Source of the DNA: a virus
Taxonomy: Duplodnaviria; Heunggongvirae; Uroviricota; Caudoviricetes
IMG/VR virus record: IMGVR_UViG_2778261570_000006
DNA length: 8,071 nucleotides
Strand: one strand, 5' to 3'
Within the stretch, counting starts at the first letter, position 1; every line of letters begins with the position of its first letter. Under the pieces are notes generated by a model, which was given only the letters and a program-made list of their open reading frames with translations, made no database searches and had not been told where the DNA came from. Of the stretch, positions 1,488 through 6,678 are shown piece after piece. A program made the translations under genes and the position numbers.

Positions 1488-1733
1488 TCAGAGTTGCCAG
1501 AAATCCGGCTTTTTTTCTGCGGGCAGATTCTTTCCGATGTGAACCAGGCACATTTTTGTGACACCTTCATCAAGTGTTTTTACGTTGCCTGATGGACCGT
1601 CGATATCAACCACAGTGAATGGGGTTTCTTTATTTTCTGTTTTAATCACGTAGCCAATACGCTTTCCTTCCAGATTAACCTCGTGAACAATGTCATCGGT
1701 CGTTACAACAGTGGATTCATAACTGGTAATCAT
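1488..1733 (-). CDS. Small hypothetical protein (81 aa) in the racC position of Rac-like prophages
   Basis: Track ORF 1488..1781; the start is moved to ATG 1733..1731 because AAGGAG (complement of 1740-1745) lies 6 nt upstream. Translation MITSYESTVVTTDDIVHEV... Assigned by position only, not by recognised sequence. Confidence 0.6.
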   Translation of the reverse strand: MITSYESTVVTTDDIVHEVNLEGKRIGYVIKTENKETPFTVVDIDGPSGNVKTLDEGVTKMCLVHIGKNLPAEKKPDFWQL

Positions 1734-1807
1734 GTTTTTCTCCTTAATTAAGGTTGAGCGAATCCCTGCCATTGCTGGCATAAATTCAGTTTCGAATAGT
1801 CAGTTAA

Positions 1808-1978: not shown

Positions 1979-2199
1979 TACCATGACTCCGCCTTTACAG
2001 GTAAACCATCACGACCGAGGAAGACTTTAATCATGCAGTCAGTAATGCATGTTTTTGTGGTCAGGCTACGGATATAAAGTTTTCGCTTTTTAATATTGTT
2101 TGCCGAGGCAATATATGTCCGGCCTTCATGAAGAACATAATCGCCAGGAGTCACACACTGACGTGGTATTTCATCAGTTCCGAAGTGATGTGCAATCAT
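1978..2199 (-). CDS. kilR: KilR-like cell-division inhibitor (killing protein), 73 aa
   Basis: Track ORF 1978..2211; the start is moved to the second ATG (2199..2197), which has GGAG 6 nt upstream (GGAGATAATTATG). Translation [35 protein letters not shown]... The 73-aa length and position match my recollection of Rac KilR. Confidence 0.6.
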
Positions 2200-2385
2200 A
2201 ATTATCTCCATTTTTACAAATGAACTTTGTTGATGCGGTGCCTGGTGCCTCCAGGTGACGTTAACCAGTTAACAATTAACGCCGGATACAGAGAACCCAC
2301 CCATAAGAACCAATACGGAAGTCAACTGGCCTTTTTAACTGTTCCGCGTGCGCTGAGCCGCATTCACCGCATCACAAAATTCACT

Positions 2386-2428
2386 TTAAAAAGGGCGGAC
2401 ATCAGCCAGCAATGAAACTGATGCCGCC
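2386..2428 (-). terminator. Intrinsic terminator oriented leftward, upstream of the kilR-like gene
   Basis: Minus strand reads GGCGGCATCAG - 12-nt loop - CTGATGTCCGCC (about 11 bp with one bulge), then CTTTTTAAAGTGAATTTTG. On the plus strand the stem is followed by AAAAAGG, so it is unidirectional. Confidence 0.5.
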
Positions 2429-2652
2429 AAAAAGGTAATCAACATGGGTTGTTGCAGCGGGGTTGTCACTCAGGCGTATGGTCAACCTGACAACCCGGTG
2501 TTATCTCGAGGAAAGGATAGCCTCGCCATACTTACCACCGCGCCATTTCGCGGATTGCCACAACCGGAAGCGCACGGTCGAAGAAATTTAACGACAAGCC
2601 TTCTAAGGGAAAAACACCTCCTCCGTGCGCCTTCGTGTTGTGTGCCTGTCTT

Positions 2653-2680
2653 TTTACCACTTCAGGCTCGGTGGTATACT
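2653..2680 (+). promoter_or_regulatory. Sigma70-type promoter with extended -10 driving the zinc-ribbon gene
   Basis: -35 TTTACC (2653-2658), 16-bp spacer, TG at 2672-2673, -10 TATACT (2675-2680). Predicted start near 2687, then SD AAGGA (2701-2705) and ATG 2713. Confidence 0.5.
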
Positions 2681-2712
2681 GGAGTTCTCACACAACCAGT
2701 AAGGAATTTAGT

Positions 2713-2991
2713 ATGGTAATTACTTCACTCTGCCCTGTTTGTTTGGCTACATCTTCTGTGCAGACTTTAGTTGAAGGACAGCGCGAATTTTTGAAAATTT
2801 ATCATTGTCCAAATCATGGTAGTTTTGCCGTTCTTCCTGATCTGGACGTGAAATTGCAAGCAATGAGGTGTTCGTCGGGTTATAAGATTGAGCATTCGGA
2901 AGAGGCTATCAGGCTCGATGCACGCTTACGTGAAAGCATACGCCCAGTAGATGGTCCTCAGTCGAAAATTCCAGTATTCCGCTCTGTCTAG
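2713..2991 (+). CDS. Small zinc-ribbon-like protein (92 aa), unknown function; rightward gene in the sieB position
   Basis: In frame with track ORF 2635..2991; start set at ATG 2713 with SD AAGGA 7 nt upstream. Translation MVITSLCPVCLATSSVQTLVEGQREFLKIYHCPNHG... has a CxxC ... HCPxH arrangement. Family not recognised. Confidence 0.6.
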   Translation: MVITSLCPVCLATSSVQTLVEGQREFLKIYHCPNHGSFAVLPDLDVKLQAMRCSSGYKIEHSEEAIRLDARLRESIRPVDGPQSKIPVFRSV

Positions 2992-3000
2992 TTTTCCCCG

Positions 3001-3022
3001 ACTGGCACCCTGTGGTGCCGGT
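3001..3022. other. Hairpin between convergent genes; possible bidirectional 3'-end structure without a U-tract
   Basis: ACTGGCACC (3001-3009) / CTGT loop / GGTGCCGGT (3014-3022), 9 bp including one G-U pair. It lies between the stop at 2989-2991 and the minus-strand stop at 3022-3024. No T-run on either side. Confidence 0.3.
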
Positions 3023-3321
3023 TACATCTCCTCGATCATCGCATTTGCTACGGCCCGCAGATCTTCCAGTGCACTTTCAACTTTTGGATCTTTTGCGGTC
3101 TCACTGACTTTTTTCATGGCATCAGCCATTCTTTTAATCAGATCATTTGGAGTCTCTTTCGGGTTAGCAGACACCCTGCTGGCCAGCTCCAGTGCAAGAC
3201 GTGCATCTTTTGGTGTAATGCCTTTATCTTTTGCCATCTCTGCTGCCAGCTCAGAAAGCTCGGATGCAAGAGTGAGAACGCTTCTTCCCGTTTTTGACGG
3301 ATATATATCGTGTGTGAACAT
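3022..3321 (-). CDS. Hypothetical acidic, Lys/Glu/Ala-rich helical protein (99 aa); first gene of the leftward early operon
   Basis: Track ORF; ATG 3321..3319 with SD GGAGAGGA ending 5 nt upstream. The antisense ORF 2951..3340 is Ser/Ala/Leu-rich and looks like shadow sequence. No arginine-rich N-terminus, so it is not N-like by sequence. Confidence 0.65.
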   Translation of the reverse strand: MFTHDIYPSKTGRSVLTLASELSELAAEMAKDKGITPKDARLALELASRVSANPKETPNDLIKRMADAMKKVSETAKDPKVESALEDLRAVANAMIEEM

Positions 3322-3389
3322 TGTTTTCCTCTCCCCTTAACGCCGGGTGGCGGAACTAAAACCTACAGCGCCGTGCTGCTTCTGTAATA

Positions 3390-3418
3390 ATATTAGTTAT
3401 GTTCATATTGATGATCAA
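3390..3418 (-). promoter_or_regulatory. pL-like leftward early promoter with overlapping palindromic operator-like site
   Basis: On the minus strand: -35 TTGATC (3418..3413), 17-bp spacer, -10 TAATAT (3395..3390). The 13-bp palindrome ATTGATGATCAAT (3407-3419) overlaps the -35. TTGATAAAAA recurs at 3436-3445 and 3479-3488. Confidence 0.45.
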
Positions 3419-3511
3419 TAGAAATATGCATTTTGTTGATAAAAATGTACTATCCTAATGAAATTTTTAGTGTTTTTTTTGATAAAAAGTAAGGCGGGGC
3501 GGGCGGAGGGG

Positions 3512-3539
3512 ACAAAAAAACCGCCAAAAATGGCGGTTT
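3512..3539 (-). terminator. Intrinsic terminator of the repressor gene
   Basis: Stem CCGCCA (3521-3526) / TGGCGG (3531-3536), extendable with A-T pairs, loop AAAA. On the minus strand it is followed by TTTTTTT (complement of 3514-3520), starting 20 nt after the repressor stop at 3559-3561. Confidence 0.6.
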
Positions 3540-3558: not shown

Positions 3559-4023
3559 CTATTTCTTCATGCGTTTTTGAGCTGCCAGCATATTTTCAAA
3601 TGCTTCTTTGTAGAGTTCATTCTGACCTTTAAGTCTTTCGATTAGTTTTGCTTTTTCTGATTCGGGAAGGATATCAAAAAGATCTAGTAAATCAGCTTGT
3701 TGCTTGTTAACCATCCGCCAACCTTCGCCTTCGAAACTTTCGTCATAAGTTCCTGAGGAACGGACGTAATTCATCAGATCAGCTAAATCAGGCCTCAACT
3801 CTTCAGGCTTAACTCTTAGTAATACAGCGAATTTTAATGCCGCATCAGTATTAAGTGGAGCCTTTCCGTTGAGATAATGGCTAACCGCAGATTGCGCCTC
3901 AAAACCCATTAGCTCGGCAGCAAGCTCCTGAGTCAGTTTGAGCTCTCTTTTTTTTGCATCCCAGATTGCGCGCAGACGTTGCGTAGCTTCCGGCGATGCG
4001 ATTTCTTCGCGTTTTCTTCTCAT
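3559..4023 (-). CDS. racR: XRE-family HTH prophage repressor (RacR/DicA-like), 154 aa
   Basis: Track ORF. The segment LTQELAAELMGFEAQSAVSHYLNGK looks like an HTH. The C-terminal LPESEKAKL...LAAQKRMKK resembles my recollection of the DicA tail. It is divergent from the Cro-like gene and has its own terminator. The racR symbol is given by synteny; orthology is unverified. Confidence 0.6.
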   Translation of the reverse strand: MRRKREEIASPEATQRLRAIWDAKKRELKLTQELAAELMGFEAQSAVSHYLNGKAPLNTDAALKFAVLLRVKPEELRPDLADLMNYVRSSGTYDESFEGEGWRMVNKQQADLLDLFDILPESEKAKLIERLKGQNELYKEAFENMLAAQKRMKK

Positions 4024-4070: not shown

Positions 4071-4099
4071 TTGATCATTTAAATTAGTATGGTTAATAT
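4071..4099 (+). promoter_or_regulatory. pR-like rightward early promoter
   Basis: -35 TTGATC (4071-4076), 17-bp spacer, -10 TAATAT (4094-4099): the same hexamers and spacing as the leftward promoter. Upstream inverted repeat TTATGAA-N5-TTCATAA at 4033-4051. Confidence 0.45.
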
Positions 4100-4127
4100 T
4101 TTGGTGAGCATTACTGAGGTGACACTT

Positions 4128-4403
4128 ATGACATTAGATGAATATTTGAAAAAAAATCGTGTACGACAGTCTTGTTTGGCCGCGCTGGCTGGTTGTTCGC
4201 AATCAATGATTAGCCTCGCTGCTACTGGACGTAGTCAGTTAAGCCCTGAAAAGGTATTGCGTATCGCAGAGGCTACGAATTTCGAGGTTACACCTCATGA
4301 ACTCCGGCCTGATATCTACCCGAATCCGACCGATGGTTTACCTGTTGGATGTAAGGCTAACACACAAAATACACAGGAGTTGATTCATGAAAATCAGGCA
4401 TGA
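4128..4403 (+). CDS. ydaS: Cro/YdaS-like HTH regulator, 91 aa
   Basis: In frame with track ORF 4089..4403. Start set at ATG 4128 because GAGG (4116-4119) lies 5 nt upstream and the track's ATG 4089 falls inside the predicted promoter. Translation MTLDEYLKKNRVRQSCLAALAGCSQSMISLAATG... The ELRPDI motif fits my recollection of the YdaS family. Confidence 0.6.
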   Translation: MTLDEYLKKNRVRQSCLAALAGCSQSMISLAATGRSQLSPEKVLRIAEATNFEVTPHELRPDIYPNPTDGLPVGCKANTQNTQELIHENQA

Positions 4404-4809
4404 GCACATTGAGTCAGTGCTGTTAGCCCTGGCCGCTGAAAAAGGGCAGGCATGGGTAGCCAGTGCAATTACTGAAGAATATCTGCGCCAGGGAGGCGGC
4501 GAATTGCCCCTGGTACCAGGCAAGGACTGGAACAATCAGCAGAATATCTATCATCGTTGGTTGAAAGGTGAAACGAATGCGCAAAGGGAAAAAATTCAGA
4601 AACTGATCCCAGCAATTCTGGCAATCCTTCCGCGCGAGCTGCGTCACCGACTCTGCATCTTCGATACCCTGGAACGCCGTGCATTACTGGCGGCGCAGGA
4701 AGCGTTGAGTACGGCAATTGATGCGCATGATGATGCAGTCCAGGCCGTTTACCGGAAAGCACATTTCAGCGGTGGTGGAGCGTCCGACGATTCTGTTGTA
4801 GTGCATTGA
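4387..4809 (+). CDS. ydaT: YdaT-like protein (cII-position regulator/toxin family), 140 aa
   Basis: Track ORF; SD AGGAG (4375-4379) 7 nt upstream; overlaps the preceding gene by 17 nt. Translation MKIRHEHIESVLLALAAEKGQAWVASAITEEYLRQGGG... matches my recollection of Rac YdaT; not alignment-verified. Confidence 0.65.
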   Translation: MKIRHEHIESVLLALAAEKGQAWVASAITEEYLRQGGGELPLVPGKDWNNQQNIYHRWLKGETNAQREKIQKLIPAILAILPRELRHRLCIFDTLERRALLAAQEALSTAIDAHDDAVQAVYRKAHFSGGGASDDSVVVH

Positions 4810-4828
4810 TTGAATAGGGTATCCAATA

Positions 4829-5242
4829 ATGAAAATCAAACCGTACATAAATGCCGGAAATCTTACTCCCGGCGAACTACGAGACTGGATCCTGAAACTT
4901 GCAAAAAATGCAGAAATTGCGGGTTGGGGTACAGAAACTTCGGTTCGGAAGCTTCAGAGCGCAGAACTTAGCCTGCGCTCAGTTATGGACGATTTATCCC
5001 CAAGAATTAATTTTCTGGGGTCAGAGCAAATAATTCGTTCGGAAGGTCACTCCAGCGAAGTTGCGGAAGTTCTGAATACTCTGAGGATAACGTTTGCTGC
5101 CGTTCGCGATATTCAACGAACCATTCTCTCATTGATTTCTCAGCTTCAAGAAATTGATAGTCGCATTCCTGGCGGGGGTCATAGAGAGCGTCTTCCAGAA
5201 TGTGAAGAGCAAGGACAGGGGAAACAGATAAGGGATCAGTAA
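4829..5242 (+). CDS. Hypothetical protein (137 aa), candidate; its 3' part overlaps a convergent ORF
   Basis: Track ORF starting 19 nt after the ydaT-like stop, with a weak SD (AGGGT, 8-nt spacer). Hand-counted first-codon-position composition over about 60 codons is G/A-rich and T-poor, which is coding-like. Rare AT-rich codons. No recognisable family. Confidence 0.45.
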   Translation: MKIKPYINAGNLTPGELRDWILKLAKNAEIAGWGTETSVRKLQSAELSLRSVMDDLSPRINFLGSEQIIRSEGHSSEVAEVLNTLRITFAAVRDIQRTILSLISQLQEIDSRIPGGGHRERLPECEEQGQGKQIRDQ

Positions 5243-5462
5243 TACGTTTTTCACTTGCCTGGTATAGCAATCTCGCCAGCGAATCATAGCTACTGGGGCT
5301 CAGGAGAGAATCCCGTGAGTGATTTGTAAGAATCAGGTGGAAGCGGGTGAGAACTATAGCCCTGCATGTTACCAGGTTAACCATGTCGTGGTCGTGCTGG
5401 TTAATTTTGTACACAGTGCGCATGTGATTTTTAATTTTTTGGCAAACAGCCATTAAAGACAT
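5007..5462 (-). CDS. Hypothetical protein (151 aa), candidate; convergent with and overlapping the 137-aa ORF by 236 nt
   Basis: Track ORF. A perfect SD AAGGAGGT (complement of 5468-5475) lies 5 nt upstream of ATG 5462..5460, and a perfect -10 TATAAT (complement of 5502-5507) lies upstream of that. No recognisable family. Confidence 0.5.
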   Translation of the reverse strand: MSLMAVCQKIKNHMRTVYKINQHDHDMVNLVTCRAIVLTRFHLILTNHSRDSLLSPSSYDSLARLLYQASEKRITDPLSVSPVLALHILEDALYDPRQECDYQFLEAEKSMREWFVEYRERQQTLSSEYSELPQLRWSDLPNELFALTPEN

Positions 5463-5501
5463 GTCGAACCTCCTTTGGTTCTGTTGATTGGGGAATCACA
5501 G

Positions 5502-5541: not shown

Positions 5542-6678
5542 ATGGTTAAGGCTAAAAACATGCCAAATCCCATGCCAAATCCCATGCCAAAAACTAAGGC
5601 AAACAACGAGCCTTATCGCAAGGTAAAAATAACGATATGGGATGATCCCAAATTTAGGGCGTTATCTCCTCTGCCTCCAAGTGGACAGAGTTTGTTTATT
5701 TATCTGCTGACCAGTCCATTTACCGGGATTATTCCTGGGTTGTTTAAAGCCGGGCGGGCAGCAATGGCTGAAGAGTTGGGGTGGGATATCGAAGCCTTTG
5801 ACTTAGCCTTAGGCGAAGCCATGAATCTTGGCATGGTGAAAGCAGATATCAAAGCCAGAGTTTTTTGGCTCCCGAATGCTGCGAAACACAATCCGCCAAA
5901 CTCGATAAATGTCATTAAATCCTGGGCAAAGGCATTCGCTTTAATTCCTGATTGCCCTCTCAAATGGGAGGCCAGGGAATCGCTGAGAGCCGCGTCCTAC
6001 GGGGTTTCTGAGGCTTTGGGGATGGCATTCGATAAGGCAATCCCTTTGCCTGAGGATAAGCCTAAGGATAAGGCTAACGCTTTGTCATGCGGTATCCAGA
6101 TAACAGATAACAGATATATAAACCCCACACATAACGCGCGCGTGCGCGAGAGTGTTCCGGCCAGTGAGGCAAATGGCGTGCCGTTGCAGACAGCGGAACC
6201 TGATTACCTGGAAGGCCTGAGCGAACCCATCGGGAAATTTCCGATGACCGATGGCTGGCATCCGTCGCCGGATTTTCGACGACGGGCTGCGCTGTGGGGC
6301 GTGGCTCTTCCTGAGCCGGAATTTACACCAGCTGAACTTGCCGCCTTCCGGGACTACTGGACAGCGGAGGGGAAAGTTTTCACGCAGGTTCAGTGGGAGC
6401 AGAAATTCGCCCGTCACGTACATCACGTCAGGGCGCAGGTTAAACCAGTCAGCAAGGGGGGGAACCATGCAGCAACGCCAGGTGGCACCGCATCACGGGC
6501 AGTTCAGGAAATTCGGGCAGCACGTGAGCAGTGGGAACGTGAAAACGGATTTATCCTCGACGGAAACGGCGTGGAAGCTGTGGGAACTCATGGGGGAGGT
6601 TTATTCGAACCGCTGGACCCAGAAGAACGGGGCCGCACCTTCGAAGCTCTGGATTGCACAGATTGGTGCGATGACTGA
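5542..6678 (+). CDS. Phage replication initiator / replisome organiser with DnaT-like C-terminal domain (O / YdaU-position), about 378 aa
   Basis: Track ORF 5488..6678 begins at TTG. The first in-frame ATG with an SD is 5542 (GAGG at 5533-5536, 5-nt spacer). The C-terminal block [43 protein letters not shown] resembles DnaT-like domains as I recall them. The last 212 nt overlap the P-like frame. Confidence 0.6.
5560..5594 (+). repeat. In-frame 12-bp tandem repeat ATGCCAAATCCC, about 2.9 copies, encoding [11 protein letters not shown]
   Basis: Exact copies at 5560-5571 and 5572-5583, and a partial copy at 5584-5594. Each unit starts with an in-frame ATG. Confidence 0.85.
6031..6148. repeat. 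Iteron-like GATAA repeats, AT-rich tract and GC palindrome inside the initiator gene; candidate replication origin
   Basis: GATAAGGC at 6031-6038, GATAAGCCTAAG / GATAAGGCTAAC at 6055-6078, CAGATAA x2 plus CAGATAT at 6097-6117, ATATATAAA, then ACGCGCGCGTGCGCG at 6134-6148. This sits in the predicted linker between the N-terminal domain and the DnaT-like domain. Confidence 0.35.

What the first reader, a model, noticed from the sequence alone, without database searches (positions are those of the whole stretch)
2653..2991. Promoter-equipped zinc-ribbon gene in the sieB position, opposed to the leftward early operon
A 92-aa protein with a CPVC ... HCPNH arrangement is transcribed rightward from its own strong-looking promoter (extended -10 TGgTATACT) and ends at a shared hairpin against the 99-aa gene. 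From memory, Rac carries sieB (superinfection exclusion) in this slot on the opposite strand to kilR. An unrelated, independently transcribed small gene here is a candidate lysogen-expressed exclusion or defence factor.
Basis: partly seen in the sequence, partly recalled or inferred. Interest (0 to 1): 0.5.

Follow-up and report, generated by a model that had tools for sequence, protein, structure and literature searches.

The report
Orphan zinc-ribbon gene in prophage sieB slot
A real but uncharacterised 92-residue zinc-ribbon protein gene sits where Rac and lambda prophages carry the exclusion gene sieB, behind a 64-base promoter/leader shared by many prophages that each carry a different small gene there. 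That makes it a plausible but untested lysogen-expressed accessory or anti-phage factor.

Summary
ORF 2713-2991 (+) encodes a 92-aa soluble protein. It has an SD (AAGGA) 7 nt upstream and a TTTACC-16-TGgTATACT promoter. A 10-bp hairpin (3000-3023) separates it from a convergent 99-aa gene. The window is a Rac-like prophage early region, and the gene occupies the sieB slot of K-12 Rac and lambda.

It is a real gene: dN/dS is 0.12-0.21 against Salmonella and Cronobacter orthologues. C7, C10 and C32 are invariant, and H35 is kept in two of three subfamilies. AlphaFold (pLDDT 84) gives a four-stranded zinc ribbon plus two helices.

The family is tiny (about 26 clusters among 5.8 billion proteins), confined to enterobacterial prophages and always in this slot. 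It has no informative match in Pfam, PADLOC, PHROGs, PDB or BFVD, and it is unrelated to SieB and not Lar-like.

The main new result is the 64-nt promoter/leader island (2643-2706). It is near-identical in about 960 of 5426 complete E. coli genomes and in phages of four genera, next to at least 7 repressor types. Behind it lie at least 8 unrelated small cargo families, with junctions 1-9 nt (SD to start codon) before the start codon.

Function is not shown. The best guess is a lysogen-expressed moron, possibly anti-phage. Novelty is a new member of a known kind, and interest is moderate.

The parts
2643..2706 (+). Conserved 64-nt promoter/leader island: -35 TTTACC 2653-2658, extended -10 TGGTATACT 2672-2680, SD AAGGA 2701-2705.
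   Evidence: 89-100% identical in all 38 IMG/VR loci found with a 36-nt exact string, and in Citrobacter and other loci, while both flanks vary. About 960 of 5426 E. coli genomes match it. Its left half is shared with the sieB upstream region of lambda, P22 and HK620.
2713..2991 (+). 92-aa zinc-ribbon protein gene (WP_134873539.1, 'hypothetical protein'). Zinc ribbon is residues 3-40 (2719-2832). Ligand codons: C7 2731-2733, C10 2740-2742, C32 2806-2808, H35 2815-2817. Helices at residues 42-55 and 63-75.
   Evidence: conservation; AlphaFold pLDDT 84, pTM 0.76; dN/dS 0.12-0.21.
3000..3023 (+). Stem-loop between the convergent genes. It forms best in the rightward transcript and has no U tract. 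Probably a 3'-end stabiliser or weak terminator of the cargo mRNA that still lets leftward early transcription pass.
   Evidence: three compensatory pairs; 10 bp on +, 6 bp on -; not terminator-like.
3022..3321 (-). 99-aa helical acidic protein, the first gene of the leftward early operon (lambda N position, but not N-like). It is inherited together with the 92-aa gene.
   Evidence: Adjacent to the orthologues in Salmonella and Cronobacter. dN/dS 0.10-0.13. Same pair next to at least 3 repressor types.
3329..3357 (-). Right junction of the variable cassette: the conserved 5'UTR/SD region of the first leftward gene.
   Evidence: BLAST junctions in loci carrying other cargos (L003, L004, L045).
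3399..3488 (-). Putative leftward early promoter/operator region: palindrome ATATTGATGATCAATAG centred at 3413, and repeats TTTT(G/T)TTGATAAAAA at 3431-3445 and 3474-3488.
   Evidence: This is inference only.
2393..2500 (-). KilS/DicF-like sRNA in the kilR leader. The leftward transcript reaches it only by reading antisense through the 92-aa gene.
   Evidence: searches (DicF 32.4 bits, below the gathering score of 48; KilS annotated at the same place in K-12), (fold z -2.7), PMC8175672.

Best explanation
The 92-aa gene is the payload of a moron-type cassette in the sieB slot of a Rac-like lambdoid prophage.

Shown:
- It is a genuine gene under purifying selection. It encodes a soluble protein with an N-terminal Cys3-His zinc ribbon and a two-helix C-terminal part.
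- It belongs to a small orphan family with three subfamilies. All sit in this slot, on the strand opposite the recE-kilR early operon.
- It is preceded by a portable 64-nt promoter/leader island that stays near-identical while the cargo, the left flank and the prophage repressor all change.

Inferred:
- The extended -10 promoter is not under immunity control, so the protein is made in the lysogen while the leftward operon is repressed.
- On induction, leftward transcription has to read antisense through the gene to reach the sRNA, kilR and recET. By collision and antisense pairing this would shut the cargo off.

Most likely role (inferred, not shown): a lysogen-expressed accessory factor that interferes with other phages. 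It would act in the cytoplasm, binding a phage or host macromolecule through the zinc ribbon. This is unlike the membrane protein SieB.
For: - Gene reality: dN/dS 0.12-0.21; conserved SD and start; C7, P8, C10, C32 and G36 invariant in 23 sequences; confident zinc-ribbon model.
- Slot: K-12 Rac sieB, lambda sieB and HK620 hkaP occupy the homologous position and orientation.
- Family synteny: subfamilies B (Citrobacter) and C lie between ydaE/kil and the repressor on the opposite strand, behind the same exact 36-nt string.
- Hypervariability: at least 8 unrelated cargo families plus sieB, with junctions 1-9 nt (SD to start codon) before the start codon. The island sits next to at least 7 repressor types.
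- The island also occurs in inducible phages Rac-SA53, phiES15, SfII and a Klebsiella phage, each with a small ORF behind it.
- The only characterised cargo of the slot is a superinfection-exclusion gene, expressed from the prophage in P22 (annotated promoter and RNA start).
Against: - No transcript, protein or phenotype data exist.
- There is no PADLOC hit for this or any other cargo of the slot, and all PHROG matches are 'unknown function'.
- The core promoter differs from the mapped P22 sieB promoter, so its activity is inferred from consensus and conservation only. As a bare consensus match it is no better than chance.
- Small prophage morons have many functions other than defence.
Confidence: 0.45

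Rival explanations
1. It is a lysogenic-conversion or host-modulating moron unrelated to phage defence. For example, a small zinc-ribbon regulator that binds a host protein, RNA polymerase or a nucleic acid and changes host physiology or prophage maintenance.
For: Own promoter, small soluble protein, no defence-family hit. Zinc ribbons are generic interaction modules, with weak hits only to generic zinc-ribbon models. Five of the 7 complete genomes carrying it come from pigs, which could hint at a niche trait.
Against: The one characterised occupant of the slot is an exclusion gene. The extreme turnover of unrelated cargos behind one promoter is more typical of conflict genes. The near-neutral pI (7.7) gives no sign of nucleic-acid binding.
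Confidence: 0.22
2. It is a two-gene conflict cassette. The 92-aa protein (made in the lysogen) and the convergent 99-aa early protein (made on induction) form a functional pair, either factor plus self-immunity like SieB/Esc, or toxin plus antidote.
For: The pair is inherited as one cassette bounded by the two translation-initiation regions. It is kept together in E. coli, Salmonella and Cronobacter, and next to at least 3 repressor types. Both genes are under purifying selection.
Against: Subfamilies B and C lack any 99-aa homologue. A 101-aa homologue (52-56% identical) is paired with an unrelated 77-aa cargo. Simple linkage within a 650-bp cassette explains the co-occurrence.
Confidence: 0.12
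3. The functional unit is the promoter, not the protein. Convergent transcription from the island damps leaky leftward expression of toxic kilR/recET in the lysogen, and the ORFs are passengers.
For: The island is far more conserved than anything downstream of it. It faces the leftward operon head-on, and the hairpin lacks a U tract, so read-through into the 99-aa gene is likely.
Against: The ORF shows dN/dS of 0.12-0.21 and invariant metal ligands. Every locus keeps an intact ORF with a correctly spaced SD.
Confidence: 0.08
4. It is a Lar/Ral-type restriction-alleviation zinc-ribbon protein.
For: Three family members give weak PF14354 hits (best E 0.0016). One BFVD neighbour is named 'restriction alleviation protein' (E 0.12). 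ral lies next to sieB in lambda and P22.
Against: Scores are 16-20 bits against a gathering score of 28.6. The window protein itself does not hit. hhalign against Rac RalR gives probability 5.6% over 12 columns. A bona fide ralR is present elsewhere in these prophages.
Confidence: 0.04

Closest known systems
SieB (superinfection exclusion B) of Rac, lambda and P22, and HkaP of HK620
   Same: Same slot and orientation: on the strand opposite the leftward early operon, between kil/cIII-side genes and the first early gene, and convergent with that gene. The roughly 35-nt upstream block GCCTGTCTTTT(A/T)ACCAC.TCAGGCTCGGTGGT is shared.
   Different: No sequence or fold relationship. SieB is 162-192 aa, basic and membrane-spanning, whereas this protein is 92 aa, neutral, soluble and zinc-binding. 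The core promoter and leader differ from the point GGTGGT onward. There is no internal Esc-type start.
Morons and prophage variation hotspots (HK97/HK022 morons; P2/P4 hotspots, PMC9122126; review PMC3594210)
   Same: An independent promoter-gene unit inserted among co-transcribed phage genes. It is present or absent or replaced among close relatives. The flanks are conserved and the content is variable.
   Different: The cargos are all very small single ORFs (59-136 aa). None matches a known defence system. The conserved anchor is only a 64-nt promoter/leader, with the junction at the SD, and the swapped unit also includes the first convergent early gene.
Generic zinc-ribbon domains (PF23545 N-terminal ribbon of GDGT-MAS-type radical SAM enzymes; Lar PF14354)
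   Same: Two CxxC/CxxH knuckles in beta-hairpin turns and a four-stranded ribbon. The best hits are PF23545 (23.4 bits) and PDB 7tom/7tol.
   Different: All hits are below the family thresholds. This is a stand-alone 92-aa protein with its own helical extension, not an enzyme domain, and the Lar relationship was rejected.

Membership tests
SieB superinfection exclusion protein | Sequence homology to SieB of lambda, P22 or Rac | tested here: not met
   No Pfam, NCBIfam or PHROG SieB hit. The homologue searches return only hypothetical zinc-ribbon proteins.
SieB superinfection exclusion protein | Membrane protein with hydrophobic segments | tested here: not met
   Highest 19-residue hydropathy is 1.57 (0.74 in the Salmonella orthologue) against 2.19 for SieB. 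pI is 7.7 against 9.9.
SieB superinfection exclusion protein | Genomic slot and orientation, opposite to the leftward early operon | tested here: met
Zinc ribbon (fold class) | Two metal-binding knuckles conserved across homologues | tested here: met
   C7, C10 and C32 are invariant in 23 sequences. H35 is kept in subfamilies A and B and replaced by Asp (with a nearby extra Cys) in C.
Zinc ribbon (fold class) | Knuckles located in the turns of two beta-hairpins | tested here: met
   The AlphaFold model (pLDDT 84) has strands 3-6, 13-21, 24-32 and 36-40, with CPVC and C-x2-H in the connecting turns.
Zinc ribbon (fold class) | Actual zinc binding | not testable with these tools
   Needs metal analysis of purified protein.
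PF23545 Zn_ribbon_HMPTM | Score at or above the Pfam gathering threshold, and N-terminal position in a radical SAM enzyme | tested here: not met
   23.4 bits against a threshold of 27. It is a stand-alone 92-aa protein.
PF14354 Lar restriction alleviation | Profile match at threshold, or profile-profile similarity to RalR | tested here: not met
Moron | Own promoter upstream of the gene | tested here: inconclusive
   There is a consensus extended -10 promoter, strongly conserved, but no transcript data.
Moron | Own terminator downstream | tested here: inconclusive
   There is a covarying hairpin but no U tract.
Moron | Presence, absence or replacement among closely related phages | tested here: met
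Moron | Expression from the repressed prophage | not testable with these tools
   Needs RNA-seq or a reporter assay in a lysogen.
Anti-phage defence hotspot | Known defence systems among the alternative cargos | tested here: inconclusive
   Only sieB is known. Ten alternative cargos have no PADLOC hit.
Toxin-antitoxin pair with the 99-aa gene | Obligate co-occurrence across the family | tested here: not met
   Subfamilies B and C lack the partner.

The most novel reading that the evidence does not exclude
The sieB/N position of Rac-like and related lambdoid phages holds a library of exchangeable conflict cassettes. Each cassette pairs a lysogen-expressed small effector (here a cytoplasmic zinc-ribbon protein that aborts or blocks a superinfecting phage) with a first early gene (here the 99-aa protein) that neutralises it during the prophage's own induction. 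That would be a two-gene equivalent of SieB/Esc. Cassettes would be swapped by the phage's own RecET recombinase, using the 64-nt promoter island and the opposite 5'UTR as short homology arms.
Probability: 0.1. Interest if true: 0.7.

Novelty: new member of a known kind. Interest (0 to 1): 0.42.

Why it matters
If the protein proves to be an exclusion or defence factor, it would add a very small, single-gene, cytoplasmic zinc-ribbon mechanism to prophage-encoded immunity. The 64-nt island would then be a simple sequence handle for harvesting many more candidates. At least 8 unrelated small-ORF families were found behind it, and several are unannotated in published phage genomes such as phiES15 and a Klebsiella phage. 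Even without a defence role, the locus is a clean example of lambdoid mosaicism with junctions placed exactly at translation-initiation regions.

Tried and rejected
- Homology: Pfam, NCBIfam, PHROGs and PADLOC gave only a sub-threshold generic zinc-ribbon hit.
- Exhaustive HMMER against 1.84 billion representative proteins gave 3 hits, all small hypotheticals.
- tblastn against 50,697 phage records found no match. Against plasmids there was one match, a 47.7-kb circular Rac-like element.
- The Lar/RalR relationship was rejected.
- The partner hypothesis for the 99-aa gene was weakened.
- RNA structure does not explain the conservation of the island: z is about -0.3 on both strands. Rfam finds nothing on the + strand there.
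- An exact-string scan of the GTDB species representatives found no island. A protein-pattern scan there found only one Salmonella genome.
- Literature searches found no paper on this gene, this family or the slot as a hotspot. Brenes and Laub 2025 on E. coli prophage defence is not held.
- The longer 118/122-aa gene models were rejected as upstream extensions that run through the promoter.

Full report
**Context**

The window is the early region of a Rac-like lambdoid prophage. Reading leftward it carries:
- the recE N-terminus (1-1361)
- racC-like, ydaE and kilR genes (1488-2211)
- a kilR leader with STnc100-like and DicF/KilS-like RNA signals (2192-2444, both below the Rfam gathering scores)

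Further right are a RacR/DicA-like repressor (3559-4023, -), ydaS/cro-like and ydaT genes (4089-4809, +), and DnaT/P-type replication genes. A near-identical arrangement in E. coli ETEC1747 is flanked by intR, xisR, ralR, recT and recE. There the target ORF is annotated WP_134873539.1, 'hypothetical protein'.

**Observation**

- A 92-aa ORF (2713-2991) with CPVC and HCPNH motifs.
- An SD (AAGGA) 7 nt upstream of the ATG.
- A TTTACC-16 nt-TGgTATACT promoter (2653-2680).
- A hairpin (3000-3023) abutting the convergent 99-aa gene (3022-3321).

Two qualifications apply. As a bare consensus match the promoter is no better than chance in this region (4 sites found, 3.7 expected). The hairpin has no U tract and is not terminator-like on either strand.

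The hairpin does appear to be selected. Three of its ten pairs show compensatory changes among E. coli, Salmonella and Cronobacter. In E. coli it forms fully only in the rightward RNA, because a U-G pair becomes a C-A mismatch on the other strand.

**It is a real gene**

Orthologues in Cronobacter sakazakii (89% identity) and Salmonella enterica (70%) give dN/dS of 0.12-0.21, with dS up to 1.9. Upstream of the ATG these genomes carry indels, so the longer 118/122-aa gene models are artefacts.

**The family**

A profile search recovered only about 26 clusters among 5.8 billion proteins. An exhaustive HMMER scan of 1.84 billion representatives found 3 hits. The sequences fall into three subfamilies:
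- A: 92 aa, in E. coli, Cronobacter and Salmonella.
- B: 88-91 aa, in Citrobacter and Enterobacter.
- C: 95-99 aa, including Pantoea; it matches PHROG 31519, 'unknown function'.

The subfamilies are 10-35% identical to each other. C7, P8, C10, C32 and G36 are invariant. H35 is kept in A and B.

With this alignment AlphaFold gives pLDDT 84 and pTM 0.76. The model is a four-stranded zinc ribbon (residues 3-40), with the two knuckles in hairpin turns, followed by two helices. The protein is soluble and near-neutral.

No structural or profile search gave a significant or informative neighbour. The best hits are the N-terminal ribbons of radical SAM enzymes. A suggested Lar/RalR link fails both the Pfam threshold and hhalign.

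**The slot**

K-12 Rac aligns with the window on both sides and has sieB where the window has this gene. Lambda has the same geometry, with sieB on the + strand and convergent with N. So does HK620/HK630 hkaP, annotated 'putative superinfection exclusion protein'.

The left half of the sequence upstream of the window gene (about 2640-2675) is roughly 92% identical to the block just upstream of sieB in lambda and P22 and of hkaP in HK620. 142 phage records hit it.

In P22 the annotated sieB promoter and RNA start lie downstream of that block. The window diverges from lambda and P22 exactly after GGTGGT, and this divergence creates TGGTATACT. So the slot is homologous, but the core promoter, leader and SD are a different module. 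What the shared block does is unexplained (note 4).

**The promoter island and its cargos**

An exact 36-nt string spanning the -10 to the SD occurs in 38 IMG/VR contigs and 4 metagenome contigs. It also occurs in the Citrobacter and other loci that carry subfamilies B and C. About 960 of 5426 complete E. coli genomes match the island, but only 7 carry this cargo, and 5 of those are from pigs.

The conserved unit is 64 nt (2643-2706). Sequence differs on both sides of it.

Downstream, the first ORF belongs to at least 8 mutually unrelated families of 59-136 aa. The junction lies 1-9 nt (SD to start codon) before the start codon. A KilR-anchored sample adds sieB and further small ORFs, including other zinc ribbons.

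None of the cargos matches Pfam or PADLOC. Their PHROG matches are all 'unknown function'.

The island sits next to at least 7 different repressor types, so immunity control of it is unlikely.

It is also present in inducible phages: Rac-SA53, Cronobacter phiES15, Shigella SfII and a Klebsiella phage. Each has a small ORF behind it, and the ORFs in phiES15 and the Klebsiella phage are unannotated.

**The cassette**

The right-hand junction of the variable segment lies at 3329-3357, in the 5'UTR/SD of the first leftward gene. The exchanged unit is therefore the two convergent ORFs, lying between two conserved translation-initiation regions.

The 92-aa and 99-aa genes stay together in three genera and next to at least 3 repressor types. 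However, subfamilies B and C have other neighbours. A 101-aa homologue of the 99-aa protein is paired with an unrelated 77-aa cargo. Linkage is therefore the simpler explanation for the pairing.

**Mechanism**

Shown: gene reality, the zinc-ribbon architecture, the fixed slot and orientation, and the portable conserved promoter/leader with interchangeable cargos.

Inferred:
- The gene is transcribed constitutively in lysogens.
- It is shut off on induction, when leftward transcription reads antisense through it on the way to the KilS/DicF-like sRNA, kilR and recET.
- It has an accessory role, most plausibly anti-phage, carried out in the cytoplasm by zinc-ribbon-mediated binding.

The defence inference rests on the slot's one characterised occupant (sieB) and on the conflict-like turnover of cargos. 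Nothing tests it directly.

The rivals are a non-defence moron, a pair with the 99-aa gene, promoter-only transcriptional interference, and Lar-like restriction alleviation. They are listed with their tests.

**Novelty and score**

The protein family is uncharacterised and very rare. The class to which it belongs, a moron or hotspot cargo in a lambdoid prophage, is well known. I found no paper describing this gene or this slot as a hotspot, although one relevant paper is not held.

I rate it a new member of a known kind, with interest 0.42. It is a well-defined candidate that is cheap to test, and the 64-nt island is a useful handle for finding many more.

Noticed in passing
window 2393-2500 (-) and 2192-2391 (-): The kilR leader carries a DicF-like hit (32.4 bits, gathering score 48) and an STnc100-like hit (33.2 bits, gathering score 47). 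It lies at the position of the Hfq-bound sRNA KilS of K-12 Rac. The terminator half is conserved among loci, while the 5' (seed-side) part, about 2431-2625, is variable.
   Followed up: partly
window 2640-2675; lambda NC_001416 ~34,397-34,432; P22 NC_002371 29,651-29,686; HK620 AF335538 6379-6414: A block of roughly 35 nt (GCCTGTCTTTT(A/T)ACCAC.TCAGGCTCGGTGGT) is conserved upstream of sieB-slot genes in 142 phage records. In P22 it lies upstream of the mapped sieB promoter, so its function is unexplained. It shows no strong RNA fold.
   Followed up: partly
L146 (Cronobacter phage phiES15 JQ780327) 1586-1873; L148 (Klebsiella phage MK416007) 1577-1771: Unannotated small ORFs (95 aa and 64 aa) lie directly behind the island in published phage genomes. 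The 95-aa ORF resembles the 94-99-aa cargos that match PHROG 8894 (not scanned itself).
   Followed up: partly
window 4810-5490: Between ydaT and the DnaT-like replication gene lie two largely overlapping ORFs on opposite strands (4829-5242 +, 137 aa; 5007-5462 -, 151 aa). Neither has a Pfam hit. Other Rac-like loci have different genes here, so this is probably a second variable slot.
   Followed up: no
window 3399-3488: A palindrome (ATATTGATGATCAATAG) and two TTTT(G/T)TTGATAAAAA repeats lie between the repressor terminator (3518-3539) and the 99-aa gene. They are candidate operators and promoter of the leftward early operon.
   Followed up: no
CP100067.1 (L007), E. coli EC727A3 'plasmid' p727A3-47K: This 47.7-kb circular, non-mobilizable record carries ralR-recT-recE-kilR, the 92-aa gene and the 99-aa gene. 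It looks like an excised or episomal Rac-like phage genome rather than a plasmid.
   Followed up: no
[not shown]
   Followed up: no
window 5571-5600: A short tandem repeat, CCAAATCCCATG in two and a half copies, encodes NPMPNPMP near the N-terminus of the DnaT-domain replication protein.
   Followed up: no
L005 (E. coli A34) 1718-1795 (-): One related prophage has a 'tRNA-OTHER' and a Rha-family regulator between kil and the cargo slot.
   Followed up: no
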